Source: an uncultured archaeon (GTDB lineage: Archaea > Asgardarchaeota > Lokiarchaeia > Sigyniarchaeales > SOKP01). From it: DNA of 41,446 bases. Position numbers and translations under genes: made by a program. The notes below the pieces were generated by a model that was given only the letters and a program-made list of their open reading frames with translations, was not told where the DNA came from and did not search any database. The stretch lies in the NCBI GenBank assembly GCA_964486045.1, contig CAZALK010000026.1, positions 1 to 41,446 on the forward strand, read 5' to 3'. This document shows positions 6,869 to 35,526 of the stretch, piece after piece; the stretch's first letter is position 1, and the number at the start of each line of letters is the position of its first letter.

Positions 6869-7300
6869 TTATCTTATTTTTATCCCATTCTCTACATATT
6901 TTATAAATAATCTAAATATTTTAGTAAATCTTAAACCTTCACCCAGATTACCATCGACTTTGATTTTCCCTTTCATGAAAGCATCCGTTCCTTCCATTTC
7001 GCGTTTAAGAATTTTAATAAAAATGTCTTTTGTATATTTGACTCTAAATGTGGCGCTTCTATTAATCCCCTTCTTGTAGATTATCGAACCATTAGAAACT
7101 TTAAACCAGAAGTTAAAATTTATATCAGTCAATAAGATTTGATAAATATCATTGTAATCTATAATTTCTTCTTTTAGCTCTTCTGTATTCCTAACAAGAT
7201 TTACCCCAAAACTTATGACTCTATCTAATGCTGTAATGAATTCCTCATCGGTTTTTCCTAAGTCGTGGAGAACCGAACTGAAACTTTTTGAATCGAGCAT
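6869..7300 (-). CDS. SCP2 sterol/lipid-binding domain protein
   Basis: C-terminal DAFMKGKIKVDGNL motif typical of SCP2. Confidence 0.85.
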   Translation of the reverse strand: MLDSKSFSSVLHDLGKTDEEFITALDRVISFGVNLVRNTEELKEEIIDYNDIYQILLTDINFNFWFKVSNGSIIYKKGINRSATFRVKYTKDIFIKILKREMEGTDAFMKGKIKVDGNLGEGLRFTKIFRLFIKYVENGIKIR

Positions 7301-10822: not shown

Positions 10823-11303
10823 ATGGTAGACGAAGCATTATTAAAAGAAATAAAAGCTGCTCAAGACGCAGGGGCATCTAGTGCATCTGTTGACACTATG
10901 ATGAAATCTTTTGAATTTATCAAGCAAATCTCCACCGAGAATGAGGACTTGAAGGAGGAGCTCGAAGATATGCAAATAACCATCCAGATGGTAATCACGG
11001 ACGCAGATAAGAAATTCTGGCTCTCAGTAAACGAAGGTAAATTAGATTTTGGTGATGGAGATGTAGAAAATCCTTCATTCACGATGTCTTCTACGCTGGA
11101 AGTGGGAGCTGGAATACTTATGGGTGAGGTAGACGCTACTTCCGCATATATGGCTGGCGACATTACAGTTGAAGGCAATCTCCAAGACGCAATGGCCTTT
11201 CAGGAAGCTTAGATAAGTCAAAAATTTTTGTGGTCTCCACACTAAGCCTGAAATCATAGAACTGGCCTTGGAAGCGTACGAAGACCTTGTCGAAGATCTT
11301 TAA
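10823..11303 (+). CDS. SCP2 sterol/lipid-binding domain protein; join(10823..11206,11253..11303), 144 aa if spliced, 129 aa unspliced
   Basis: SAYMAGDITVEGNL SCP2 motif; frame resumes after the 46-nt insert as IIELALEAYEDLVEDL-stop; T-run terminator follows. Confidence 0.85.
11207..11252 (+). other. Candidate BHB/BHL-type mRNA intron (46 nt) containing an in-frame TAG
   Basis: Central helix CAGG(11201-04)/CCTG(11247-50); bulge AAG; inner helix CTTAG/CTAAG; 3' AAA; cutting after nt 2 of each triplet restores the frame. Confidence 0.8.
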
Positions 11304-11335: not shown

Positions 11336-11371
11336 TCTTTTTTTTATTTTAACTTAATTTTTTATTTTTTT
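11336..11371 (+). terminator. Archaeal poly-T terminator after SCP2 exon 2
   Basis: Several long T runs 35-70 nt after TAA 11303. Confidence 0.5.
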
Positions 11372-34643: not shown

Positions 34644-35360
34644 GTGAATCATAATTATAAACAAGATCTAAAAAATCATTTAATTAAAGAAAAAAAAGAA
34701 AAATTAAGCGAAAAATCAGTAGAAGCAATTATTAAAGAAAACCTCTATATTATTGAAGAAAAAAGTTTTACCTTAAGGGCAGTAATAAGTCCTGCGGATT
34801 ACCCATATCATGAACAATTAGATTTTAATCCATTTGAGTTTACTAATTTCTTTAACCAACTTTTAATGAGAAGCTATAGTCTAAATAAGGAAACTCAGCC
34901 AATTATCTTTTTTGATCAGCAAGGATCAATAATCGATTATTCCGCTTTTCTCATACCAATTATTCCTAACAAATGGATGAGTTTAAGAAAAAGGAATAGA
35001 TATAATAACATATTAATCAAAAATGATGGGGTTCTATTGTTTATTACTTCACAGAATGTTGAAATAGATAATAAGTATATGTTAGATTTAGACTCTTTAT
35101 CCCTCCAGTTAGAAATCTTCTTCTCTCATATTATTCCAGAAATCTATGAAAACATGAATTATGAAGACAGATTAAAAATTAAAATTGAATGTTTTGGTTT
35201 AAGAAAATGTTATATTCAGGATGTGGATCATCTTGAAAAGATTAAACCACTAAGAGGTACATCGAGCAGATTTAGTAGATCTTATATCTTAAATCTTCAA
35301 AATCCCATCGCAATTTACAGAATAATTATTAATGATATGCGAAGACTATTTGAATTCTAA
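34644..35360 (+). CDS. Hypothetical protein
   Basis: 238-aa ORF; AGGAGAG upstream of GTG. Confidence 0.7.
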   Translation: MNHNYKQDLKNHLIKEKKEKLSEKSVEAIIKENLYIIEEKSFTLRAVISPADYPYHEQLDFNPFEFTNFFNQLLMRSYSLNKETQPIIFFDQQGSIIDYSAFLIPIIPNKWMSLRKRNRYNNILIKNDGVLLFITSQNVEIDNKYMLDLDSLSLQLEIFFSHIIPEIYENMNYEDRLKIKIECFGLRKCYIQDVDHLEKIKPLRGTSSRFSRSYILNLQNPIAIYRIIINDMRRLFEF

Positions 35361-35526
35361 AGTGACGAGAATATAAATTTTAATTTTATTTAGATCAAGA
35401 ATTTGCGTCTCGAATATTGATAGAAGAGATTTTCAAGGGCTATGAGCCACTTTGTTACATAAATTTTTTTTCCCTTAATGGCTCCCATTAACTCTTAATT
35501 TCCTTCATAACTCTTCTTTAATTTGC

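What the first reader, a model, noticed from the sequence alone, without database searches (positions are those of the whole stretch)
11192..11303. Candidate tRNA-type (BHB/BHL) intron in an Asgard protein-coding gene: splicing would switch the C-terminus of an SCP2 lipid carrier
Seen: the ORF stops early (AFQEA-TAG). CAGG(11201-04) pairs with CCTG(11247-50), followed by the 3-nt bulge AAG and inner helix CTTAG/CTAAG. AAA(11251-53) lies on the other side with a looser outer helix ATGG/TCAT, so the motif is relaxed (BHL-like). Applying the EndA rule (cut after nt 2 of each triplet) removes 11207-11252 (46 nt) and joins GAA to ATC, giving GNLQDAMAFQEIIELALEAYEDLVEDL. The paralog at 6869-7300 ends GNLGEGLRFTKIFRLFIKYVENGIKIR; both have 18 residues after the Phe (144 versus 143 aa). 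Established: EndA-spliced archaeal mRNA introns are rare, the main example being cbf5 in Thermoproteota; eukaryotic HAC1/XBP1 mRNAs use non-spliceosomal cleavage plus tRNA ligase to change a C-terminus. Inference: Asgard mRNA splicing by tRNA machinery, possibly regulating a lipid-binding protein. Caveat: TTT(11198-200) can pair with the AAA and compete with the cleavable fold, which could weaken the call or act as a switch.
Basis: partly seen in the sequence, partly recalled or inferred. Interest (0 to 1): 0.95.

Follow-up and report, generated by a model that had tools for sequence, protein, structure and literature searches.

The report
tRNA-type intron inside Asgard SCP2 gene
A 46-base insert that breaks a lipid-carrier (SCP2) gene of a Lokiarchaeial (Asgard) archaeon has the fold and cut sites of a tRNA-type intron, and comparison with about 50 relatives indicates it must be cut out of the RNA to make the normal protein; this kind of mRNA splicing is published for only one gene, in other archaea.

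Summary
The SCP2 ORF (10823-11212) stops at AFQEA-TAG. Removing 11207-11252 (46 nt) gives ...AFQEIIELALEAYEDLVEDL, which is exactly the C-terminus of 45 uninterrupted same-genus orthologs.

Six different inserts (46, 50, 54, 42, 32 and 32 nt) sit at this same codon boundary in other genomes and metagenome contigs. All keep a 4-bp exon-intron helix, a 3-nt 5' bulge and an inner helix:
- 48 of 48 pair cells are standard, against 4-23 when the register is slid.
- 5 of 8 pairs show changes on both sides.
- Cutting after the second bulge base restores the frame in every case.

Exon 2 stays under purifying selection: 15 of 48 nt differ between two carriers, with one amino-acid change. The genome encodes two EndA paralogues and RtcB. 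Its essential rpoA' gene carries a similar 30-nt insert with an in-frame stop.

Best reading: a relaxed bulge-helix-bulge (HBh'-type) intron, removed constitutively by EndA and RtcB. A regulatory C-terminus switch has no support. The 3' bulge is not thermodynamically favoured and has no adjacent outer helix.

No RNA data could be found, so splicing itself is inferred. The scan has reported such introns before on other Asgard DNA. I found no publication on them in Asgard mRNAs.

The parts
10823..11206 (+). Exon 1 of the SCP2 gene (codons 1-128, ...GNLQDAMAFQE)
   Evidence: Pfam SCP2 PF02036, E 4e-14, residues 33-128 matching profile positions 1-98 of 101. It is 73-89% identical to 47 same-genus orthologs.
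11207..11252 (+). 46-nt intron. The boundaries can slide within the repeated GAA (11204-06 and 11250-52) without changing the product.
   Evidence: Absent from 45 of 48 genus orthologs, whose sequence is continuous exactly here. Single copy in the genome. Present in independent Logan contigs of DNA run X1.
11253..11303 (+). Exon 2: 16 codons (IIELALEAYEDLVEDL) plus the TAA stop at 11301-03
   Evidence: Identical in protein to the commonest ortholog C-terminus. Compared with the G005 carrier, 15 of 48 nt differ but only 1 residue; no neutral simulation out of 20,000 reached this. It forms the second half of the last helix (residues 120-142) in the AF2 model of an intronless ortholog, pLDDT 93.8.
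11201..11204 (+). Central helix, 5' strand (exon CAGG)
   Evidence: Pairs with 11247-50. It covaries with the intron across carriers: CAGG/CCTG, CAAG/CTTG and CAGG/CTTG (G.U).
11247..11250 (+). Central helix, 3' strand (intron CCTG)
11205..11207 (+). 5' bulge AAG; predicted cut after 11206
   Evidence: The geometry and the ortholog-defined junction coincide.
11251..11253 (+). 3' 'bulge' AAA; predicted cut after 11252. It can instead pair with UUU 11198-200, and no adjacent outer helix exists.
   Evidence: the BHB-constrained fold is -10.6 kcal/mol against a minimum of -13.7
11208..11212 (+). Inner helix, 5' strand (CTTAG). It contains the premature stop TAG at 11210-12.
   Evidence: Pairs with 11242-46. 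G005 has the compensated pair CTCAG/CTGAG; other carriers use GAAU/AUUC and AUUU../..AAAU.
11242..11246 (+). Inner helix, 3' strand (CTAAG)
11229..11241 (+). Apical hairpin of the intron (UGUGG-UCU-CCACA)
   Evidence: RNAfold. G005 has GCG...CGC at the same place, a compensated change.
11338..11345 (+). Oligo-T run downstream of the exon-2 stop, a likely archaeal terminator (inferred)
   Evidence: A T-run at the same distance follows the stop in nearly all orthologs. This suggests the transcript extends through exon 2.

Best explanation
The 46 nt at 11207-11252 are a tRNA-type (bulge-helix-bulge, relaxed HBh' form) intron in the pre-mRNA of an SCP2 lipid-carrier gene of a Lokiarchaeial/Promethearchaeota (Asgard) archaeon.

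Proposed mechanism. The last exon-1 bases (CAGG) pair with the intron's 3' end (CCUG) to form the 4-bp central helix. A 3-nt bulge (AAG) and a 5-bp intron helix lie on its 5' side, and AAA lies on its 3' side. The host's two-subunit splicing endonuclease EndA cuts after the second base of each triplet. RtcB then joins the exons. The mRNA then encodes the full 144-residue protein, whose last helix is otherwise cut in the middle.

Splicing is most likely constitutive. The intron is a dispensable, evolutionarily unstable passenger rather than a regulatory device.

Shown: the insert, its geometry, its covariation, the exact restoration of the ortholog sequence, selection on exon 2, and the presence of the enzyme genes.
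Inferred: cleavage, ligation, and that the spliced form is the one translated.
For: 1. The predicted spliced product is identical to the C-terminus of the uninterrupted orthologs in 45 of 48 genus genomes.
2. Six distinct inserts occupy the same FQE|II codon boundary: G000 46 nt, G005 50, JGI contigs 54, 42 and 32, G061 32. They fall into three unalignable types. In the BHB register all give 48 of 48 standard pairs, against 4-23 of 48 when the register is slid. Five of 8 pairs change on both sides. One of these is an exon synonymous change (CAG to CAA) matched by an intron C to U change, with a G.U intermediate.
3. Shuffled inserts meet the geometry only 1-2 times in 10^4.
4. Lengths of 46, 50 and 32 nt are not multiples of three, yet the rule of cutting after bulge base 2 restores the frame each time.
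5. Exon 2 is under purifying selection: 15 of 48 nt differ between G000 and G005 with 1 amino-acid change, and none of 20,000 neutral simulations reached this. Whole-gene dN/dS is about 0.05, the same as for intronless genes.
6. The intron splits the last helix (residues 120-142) of a confident model.
7. G000 encodes two EndA paralogues. One resembles the crenarchaeal catalytic subunits, with the loop region and the Tyr/His/Lys positions aligned. It also encodes RtcB. Asgard EndA is reported as (alpha-beta)2 with the L1 loop, which is linked to cleavage of relaxed motifs (PMC5829648).
8. The essential, single-copy rpoA' gene of the same genome has a 30-nt insert of the same geometry with an in-frame stop inside the CxGHFGH|IELARP motif. 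G017 and G045 share it with compensatory changes, and 25 other loci lack it.
9. The insert is present in independent contigs of the DNA run at depth about 264.
Against: - No RNA evidence. The only RNA run holding related sequence carries an intronless relative's form.
- The 3' cut site is not in a predicted bulge. UUU 11198-200 pairs with AAA in the minimum-energy fold. That fold also prefers a GAA-bulge register, which would give the wrong frame. The BHB-constrained fold costs 0.8-3.1 kcal/mol more.
- No outer helix adjoins the 3' site, so the strict hBHBh' motif is not met.
- The truncated ORF already covers Pfam SCP2 positions 1-98 of 101.
- One metagenome allele (L097) is truncated two codons further on by a plain nonsense change, so a short protein may be tolerated.
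- A T5 run inside the intron (11225-29) might terminate some transcripts.
- My own genome-wide BHB-plus-ORF scans gave no excess over frame-shifted controls, so they add no support.
Confidence: 0.85

Rival explanations
1. Inert insertion. The insert is simply a disruptive insertion, the 129-residue truncated SCP2 is what the cell makes (or the gene is dying), and nothing is spliced.
For: The truncated ORF still covers Pfam SCP2 positions 1-98 of 101. A nonsense-truncated allele without an intron exists (L097). G000 has six further SCP2-family matches that could compensate. No spliced RNA was seen.
Against: Exon 2 keeps its frame, length, stop and protein sequence in all six carriers despite about 30% nucleotide divergence. 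Helices are maintained by compensatory changes, including exon-intron ones. Three unrelated insert types all obey the EndA cut rule. rpoA' cannot be dispensable, yet it carries the same kind of insert.
Confidence: 0.05
2. Regulated switch. Splicing is conditional, as in HAC1/XBP1, and toggles between a short and a long SCP2. The UUU:AAA pairing would act as the switch.
For: The competing fold exists and is more stable than the cleavable one. Unspliced RNA would give a defined short product with an early stop.
Against: The read-through peptides differ completely between carriers. The intron is absent from 45 of 48 orthologs. The UUU:AAA pairing is not conserved: one carrier has UUC and another faces AUA. 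No Ire1-type RNase domain was found, though that search had no positive control. The same kind of intron sits in rpoA', where a truncated product has no plausible use.
Confidence: 0.05
3. Translational bypass (T4 gene 60 type). Ribosomes take off at GAA 11204-06, skip 46 nt and land at GAA 11250-52.
For: Matching take-off and landing codons (GAA/GAA) flank the gap in five of the six carriers. A hairpin and a nearby stop follow the take-off site. The gaps of 46-54 nt resemble the 50-nt gap of gene 60 (gene 60 features recalled from memory).
Against: In G061 the codons do not match (GAG versus GAU). In rpoA' they do not match either (CAU versus UAA). The stop is not directly after the take-off codon in G000. 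Covariation of the exon-intron helix is explained by BHB recognition, not by hopping.
Confidence: 0.03
4. Assembly or sequencing artefact, or a small multi-copy mobile element (MITE) caught in one assembly.
For: The window comes from a metagenome-assembled genome with 7.8% estimated contamination.
Against: Independent Logan contigs of run X1 show the insert with 0 differences at depth about 264. Related inserts occur in several unrelated metagenomes, including LAZR01002753.1. The insert is single copy in G000, and there is no consistent target-site duplication.
Confidence: 0.01

Closest known systems
cbf5 pre-mRNA intron of Crenarchaeota (Aeropyrum, Sulfolobus, Desulfurococcales; Yokobori et al. 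2009, PMC2738675, and the earlier work it cites)
   Same: A short BHB-type intron inside a protein-coding gene, presumed to be removed by the tRNA splicing endonuclease. It is gained and lost between lineages, and it is missed by gene callers.
   Different: Different gene (SCP2), different phylum (Asgard/Lokiarchaeia) and no sequence relation. Here the same codon boundary holds three unalignable intron types, a second site (QDA|MAF) is used in relatives, and carriers are scattered over the gene tree. Splicing of cbf5 was shown experimentally; here it is not.
Archaeal tRNA/rRNA BHB introns, including the heavily interrupted tRNA genes of Asgard archaea (PMC11291895; bioRxiv 10.64898/2026.10.13.758758; EndA types in PMC5829648)
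   Same: The same recognition geometry (4-bp helix, 3-nt bulges, cut after bulge base 2), half of the motif built from exon sequence, and the same enzymes.
   Different: The host RNA is an mRNA. The reading frame has to be restored, and translation can compete with splicing. The 3' site lacks the outer helix that the anticodon stem provides in tRNA.
HAC1/XBP1 unconventional mRNA splicing (Ire1 plus tRNA ligase)
   Same: Non-spliceosomal endonuclease cuts plus RNA ligase (RtcB in metazoa) change the C-terminus of the encoded protein.
   Different: Ire1 recognises twin 7-nt loops, not a BHB, and the event is a regulated stress switch. No Ire1-type domain was found here (weak test), and there is no sign of regulation.
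Phage T4 gene 60 translational bypass
   Same: A gap of about 50 nt with a hairpin and a stop, flanked by identical codons.
   Different: The codon match fails in G061 and in rpoA'. Helix covariation involves the intron's 3' end, which a hopping ribosome would not need.

Membership tests
Archaeal BHB (EndA-spliced) intron | 4-bp central helix between the two cut sites | tested here: met
   CAGG 11201-04 pairs with CCUG 11247-50. It is kept in all six carriers with the types G-C, A-U and G.U at pair 3.
Archaeal BHB (EndA-spliced) intron | 3-nt bulge on the 5' strand followed by an intron helix (h') | tested here: met
   AAG 11205-07 followed by CUUAG/CUAAG. All 24 inner-helix pair cells across the six introns are standard, and all four inner pairs change on both sides.
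Archaeal BHB (EndA-spliced) intron | 3-nt bulge on the 3' strand closed by an outer exon-exon helix (strict hBHBh') | tested here: not met
   AAA 11251-53 is followed by UCAU, which has no partner next to the central helix. The minimum-energy fold pairs AAA with UUU. The motif is therefore the relaxed HBh'/BHL form, which is reported to need (alpha-beta)2 or epsilon2 EndA (PMC5829648).
Archaeal BHB (EndA-spliced) intron | Cutting after the second base of each bulge yields the functional RNA | tested here: met
   It gives the exact intronless ortholog sequence in all six site-A introns, and in the rpoA' inserts of three genomes.
Archaeal BHB (EndA-spliced) intron | Host encodes a splicing endonuclease able to cut relaxed motifs, and an RNA ligase | tested here: met
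   Two PF01974 paralogues (C7:36595-36819 and C10:137165-137410) and RtcB (C1:512216-513523). The C7 protein aligns without a gap to the A. pernix catalytic subunit across the loop region. Enzyme activity was not tested.
Archaeal BHB (EndA-spliced) intron | The intron is actually absent from mature RNA, or is cleaved in vitro | not testable with these tools
   No RNA run of this organism was found. Run X13 holds only a relative's intronless form.
SCP2 sterol/lipid carrier family (PF02036) | Match to the Pfam model above the gathering score | tested here: met
   53.2 bits against a cut-off of 21.3. The AF2 model of the ortholog is an alpha/beta fold with a long C-terminal helix. Lipid binding was not tested.
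HAC1/XBP1-type regulated unconventional splicing | Ire1 kinase/RNase and conditional splicing | tested here: inconclusive
   PF06479 was not found in G000, but the search had no positive control. Conditionality cannot be tested without RNA.
Programmed translational bypass (T4 gene 60 type) | Matched take-off and landing codons in every carrier | tested here: not met
   GAG versus GAU in G061; CAU versus UAA in rpoA'.

The most novel reading that the evidence does not exclude
This intron is one of a population of mobile, EndA-spliced introns that colonise ordinary and essential protein-coding genes (SCP2 at two sites, rpoA', probably uL11 and others) in this Lokiarchaeial genus. They turn over quickly, possibly by recombination or a homing-like spread. 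Observations pointing that way:
- Three unrelated intron types reuse one codon boundary.
- Carriers are scattered over the gene tree.
- An allele identical to the window's gene over nt 1-370, except at one site, carries a different intron, and it diverges sharply from the window exactly from the intron site onward.

That would make routine mRNA splicing part of normal gene expression in close relatives of eukaryotes.
Probability: 0.4. Interest if true: 0.9.

Novelty: new member of a known kind. Interest (0 to 1): 0.8.

Why it matters
Endonuclease-spliced introns in archaeal mRNAs are published for one gene, cbf5, in Crenarchaeota. In six full-text searches on BHB or mRNA introns in Asgard archaea and Lokiarchaeia I found papers on Asgard tRNA introns only.

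A well-supported case in an Asgard SCP2 gene, together with a parallel case in the essential rpoA' gene of the same genome, has three consequences:
1. Gene callers truncate or split real genes in these genomes. The deposited proteins of 127-139 residues are examples.
2. The tRNA splicing machinery of the closest archaeal relatives of eukaryotes very probably also works on mRNAs.
3. Presence/absence polymorphism among close relatives gives a natural system for studying how protein-coding introns are gained and lost in a prokaryote. That bears on the old question of where mRNA introns and splicing-dependent gene expression came from.

It is directly testable by RT-PCR or metatranscriptomics on the source sediment or on cultured relatives.

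Tried and rejected
1. RNA evidence. Two run searches found one metatranscriptome (X13) with a small share of the words. When laid, its contig is a relative's intronless form (loose end at 11202 reading AGAGATTATTGA...). The same form is seen in DNA run X3, so it says nothing about splicing. X2 laid nothing.

2. Genome-wide census. Two scans of G000 looked for the BHB geometry whose excision fuses two open frames. One required at least 4 inner pairs and at least 7 Watson-Crick pairs of 8; the other required at least 6 inner pairs with G.U allowed. Neither gave an excess over controls with the 3' cut shifted by 1-2 nt (for example 832 against 799-861). The AT-rich genome gives too many chance hairpins. 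The first scan's filter would also have excluded the rpoA' intron. This is no evidence for or against a dense system.

3. Simple +1/-1 frameshift. It is impossible: TAG 11210-12 in frame 0 and TAA 11214-16 in the exon-2 frame leave no open path.

4. TAG read-through or pyrrolysine. Frame 0 runs into TAA eleven codons later and never reaches the exon-2 frame.

5. MITE or repeat. The insert is single copy in G000.

6. The alternative register favoured by RNAfold (GAA bulge, GCUUAG/CUAAGC). It would remove 48 nt and give ...AFQDHRTGLG, unlike any ortholog.

7. MAFFT alignment of the six introns (A2). It did not keep the 5' inner strand in register, so pair counts were made by script instead.

8. 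A single origin of all site-A carriers is rejected on the gene tree (p-AU 2e-5). G000 plus G005 alone is not rejected (p 0.088). The number of gains is therefore left open.

Full report
**What is in the window.** The + strand carries an SCP2-family gene starting at ATG 10823 (Pfam PF02036, E 4e-14). The frame ends at TAG 11210-12 after ...GNLQDAMAFQEA. Downstream, in the +1 frame, 11253-11300 reads IIELALEAYEDLVEDL followed by TAA.
- CAGG 11201-04 pairs with CCTG 11247-50.
- AAG lies at 11205-07.
- CTTAG 11208-12 pairs with CTAAG 11242-46.
- AAA lies at 11251-53, and TTT 11198-200 can pair with it.

No frameshift or stop read-through can link the two frames. TAG in frame 0 and TAA 11214-16 in the exon-2 frame overlap the only possible crossing point.

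**The predicted splice product is the real protein of the relatives.** The window is contig C26 of a 5.18-Mb genome (G000). Source names given to near-identical proteins place it in Promethearchaeota/Lokiarchaeia. One related contig is LAZR01002753.1.
- In the 54 genomes of the genus, 48 have the ortholog.
- In 45 of them the gene is uninterrupted, 144 codons long, and ends ...AFQEI[IV]EL[AS]LEAYEDL[VIA]ED[LM].
- Deleting exactly 11207-11252 from the window yields ...AFQEIIELALEAYEDLVEDL, the commonest of these C-termini.
- The DNA alignment shows a clean 46-nt gap in the orthologs at this point.

**Other carriers, and covariation.** Two further genus genomes are interrupted at the same FQE|II boundary: G005 (50 nt) and G061 (32 nt). 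Truncated database proteins of 127-139 residues led to further metagenome contigs. A pattern scan of metagenome contigs added more. Together these give inserts of 54, 42 and 32 nt at the same boundary.

The six inserts fall into three types that cannot be aligned internally: 46/50/54 nt, 42 nt, and 32/32 nt. All share the same architecture:
- four exon bases (CAGG or CAAG) paired with the four intron bases that precede the last two intron bases (CCUG or CUUG);
- a 3-nt bulge (AAG, AGU or AAA);
- an inner helix (CUUAG/CUAAG, CUCAG/CUGAG, CUUA/UAAG, GAAU/AUUC, AUUUU.../...AAAAU);
- a 3' triplet (AAA or AUA).

Counted in that register, 48 of 48 pair cells are standard pairs, against 4-23 of 48 when the 3' partners are slid by 1-3 bases. 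Five of the eight pairs show changes on both sides. In the central helix, the synonymous exon change CAG to CAA is matched by C to U in the intron, and a G.U intermediate occurs in a third sequence. Shuffled versions of each insert meet the geometry 18-46 times in 200,000.

Lengths of 46, 50 and 32 nt are not multiples of three. Even so, cutting after the second base of each triplet restores the frame and the ortholog sequence in every case.

**Selection on exon 2.** Between the G000 and G005 carriers, exon 2 differs at 15 of 48 nucleotides but at only one residue. That residue is V/A, which also varies among intronless orthologs. None of 20,000 random-substitution simulations gave so few protein changes without a stop. 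Whole-gene dN/dS is about 0.05 for carriers and non-carriers alike, with synonymous sites near saturation.

An AlphaFold2 model of an intronless ortholog (pLDDT 93.8) has a single C-terminal helix spanning residues 120-142. The intron sits at codon 128/129, so the unspliced product would lose about 60% of that helix.

One caveat applies. If the introns entered each lineage only recently, part of this conservation predates them. However, the homologous 46/50/54-nt introns have themselves diverged strongly, which argues for a long residence.

**Machinery and a second, essential host gene.** G000 encodes two EndA paralogues.
- The C7 protein is closest to the catalytic subunits of the heterotetrameric crenarchaeal enzymes (PDB 3p1z_B, 3ajv_B, 2cv8, 2zyz_B). 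The assignment of those entries to organisms and subunits is from my memory.
- It aligns without a gap through the loop region and keeps the Tyr/His/Lys positions.
- The C10 protein is closest to the M. jannaschii enzyme.
- RtcB is present.

Published work reports that Asgard archaea have the (alpha-beta)2 enzyme with the L1 loop, which is linked to cleavage of relaxed motifs (PMC5829648). It also reports that their tRNA genes are heavily interrupted (PMC11291895; bioRxiv 10.64898/2026.10.13.758758). ARAGORN finds only 31 tRNAs in G000, 20 of them with called introns.

Following an earlier first-reader note, I checked rpoA'. The universal CxGHFGH|IELARP motif of the single-copy gene is interrupted at C13:44101-44130 by 30 nt containing an in-frame TAA. 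The geometry is GGAC/GUCU, bulges AUU and AAA, and a 9-bp inner helix. G017 and G045 carry the same insert with compensatory changes: exon GGA to GGG with intron U to C, and inner pair 3 as G.U, U-A or A-U. Twenty-five other genus loci are continuous. An RNA polymerase subunit cannot be dispensable, so the organism must remove such inserts. This raises the prior for the SCP2 case.

**Weak points.**
- Splicing has not been seen. The only RNA run with related sequence holds an intronless relative's form, which is also present in DNA runs.
- The motif is not the strict hBHBh'. There is no outer helix next to the 3' site.
- RNAfold prefers to pair UUU with AAA. It also prefers a GAA-bulge register that would give a wrong product. 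The BHB-constrained folds cost 0.8-3.1 kcal/mol more.
- The UUU:AAA pairing is not conserved (UUC in one carrier, AUA in another), so it looks like a by-product of the Phe codon rather than a switch.
- The truncated ORF still covers almost the whole Pfam model. One metagenome allele (L097) is cut short two codons later by a simple GAA to TAA change. A short protein may therefore be tolerated, or that contig holds an error.
- My genome-wide scans were too noisy to count such introns.

**Regulation.** Nothing supports a HAC1/XBP1-like switch. The peptides added by reading into the intron differ in every carrier, and the intron is missing from most orthologs. No Ire1-type RNase domain was found, although that search had no positive control. 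Constitutive removal of a neutral or selfish insert is the simpler reading.

**Translational bypass.** This reading is attractive because GAA flanks the gap on both sides. It fails in G061 (GAG versus GAU) and in rpoA' (CAU versus UAA).

**Evolutionary pattern (partly followed).**
- On a tree of the spliced coding sequences, the site-A carriers fall in at least three clades. Forcing the three genus carriers into one clade is rejected (p-AU 2e-5). G000 plus G005 alone is not rejected (p 0.088).
- A second intron site (QDA|MAF, 30 nt, relaxed motif) occurs in other metagenome alleles.
- One of these (L098) is identical to the window's gene over nt 1-370 except at one site. It lacks the site-A intron, carries the site-B intron, and differs at 11 of the last 57 coding bases.
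- This sharp boundary at the intron could reflect recombination or co-conversion accompanying intron gain or loss. It could also be a chimeric metagenome contig, although the same protein is on two contigs.

**Verdict.** The core interpretation, a tRNA-type intron in an Asgard mRNA, is supported by exact ortholog restoration, covariation, selection on exon 2 and the presence of the enzyme genes. The regulatory extension is not supported.

The closest known case is the crenarchaeal cbf5 pre-mRNA intron (PMC2738675). This is a new member of that kind, in a new gene and lineage. Earlier agents of this scan reported similar introns in radA, cbf5 and EF-1alpha of other Asgard genomes, and first readers flagged several in this genome. 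I found no publication describing them in Asgard mRNAs in six full-text searches on that question.

Noticed in passing
G000 contig C13:44101-44130 (outside the window; locus L064 1753-1782): rpoA' is interrupted inside the CxGHFGH|IELARP motif by a 30-nt insert of BHB geometry with an in-frame TAA. G017 (L067) and G045 (L069) have the same insert with compensatory changes, and 25 other genus loci are continuous. In G022 and G059 the BLAST alignment breaks at the same query position, with about 85-94 nt between the pieces. I did not inspect those two.
   Followed up: partly
Metagenome loci L098-L106 (e.g. L098:1071-1100): A second intron site in the same SCP2 gene: a 30-nt insert between QDA and MAF, five codons upstream of the window's site. 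It has a 3-4-bp central helix and a relaxed motif. Removing it restores the 144-codon protein. It is not present in the window or in the 54 genus genomes.
   Followed up: partly
L098 against window 10823-11303: The spliced coding sequence of L098 equals the window's at 369 of the first 370 nt, then differs at 11 of the last 57 nt, starting right at the intron sites. The flanking genes also differ. This is either recombination linked to intron turnover or a chimeric contig.
   Followed up: partly
L097:733-800 (JGI Ga0452215_371708): An ortholog without an intron is truncated by ATT GAA to ATG TAA two codons after the intron site (protein ends AFQEIM). The rest of exon 2 is still intact in frame. 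It is a very recent nonsense allele or a sequencing error.
   Followed up: no
G000 contig C5, about 238,700-238,740 (locus L112): The ribosomal protein uL11 gene changes frame between ...GPTGINV and (I)KDVVDEINSQT across a 25-28-nt insert with a stop. I could not settle a BHB register by hand.
   Followed up: partly
G000 whole genome: ARAGORN finds only 31 tRNA genes. Twenty have called introns, several with odd anticodons or positions. This fits heavily and non-canonically interrupted tRNA genes that standard tools miss.
   Followed up: no
Loci L011, L046, L047, L053, L055 (G012, G056, G064, G057, G043): Five genus genomes carry two tandem copies of this SCP2 gene about 0.8 kb apart. The second copy ends ...ELAGEALEDLLED(L).
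   Followed up: no
window 11225-11229: A T5 run lies inside the intron and could act as a weak archaeal terminator for unspliced transcripts. The other intron versions lack it.
   Followed up: no
window 35357-35394 (+): My noisy scan flagged a 38-nt BHB-like segment whose removal would join a 251-codon open frame to a 31-codon one. It was not checked against homologs and may well be chance.
   Followed up: no
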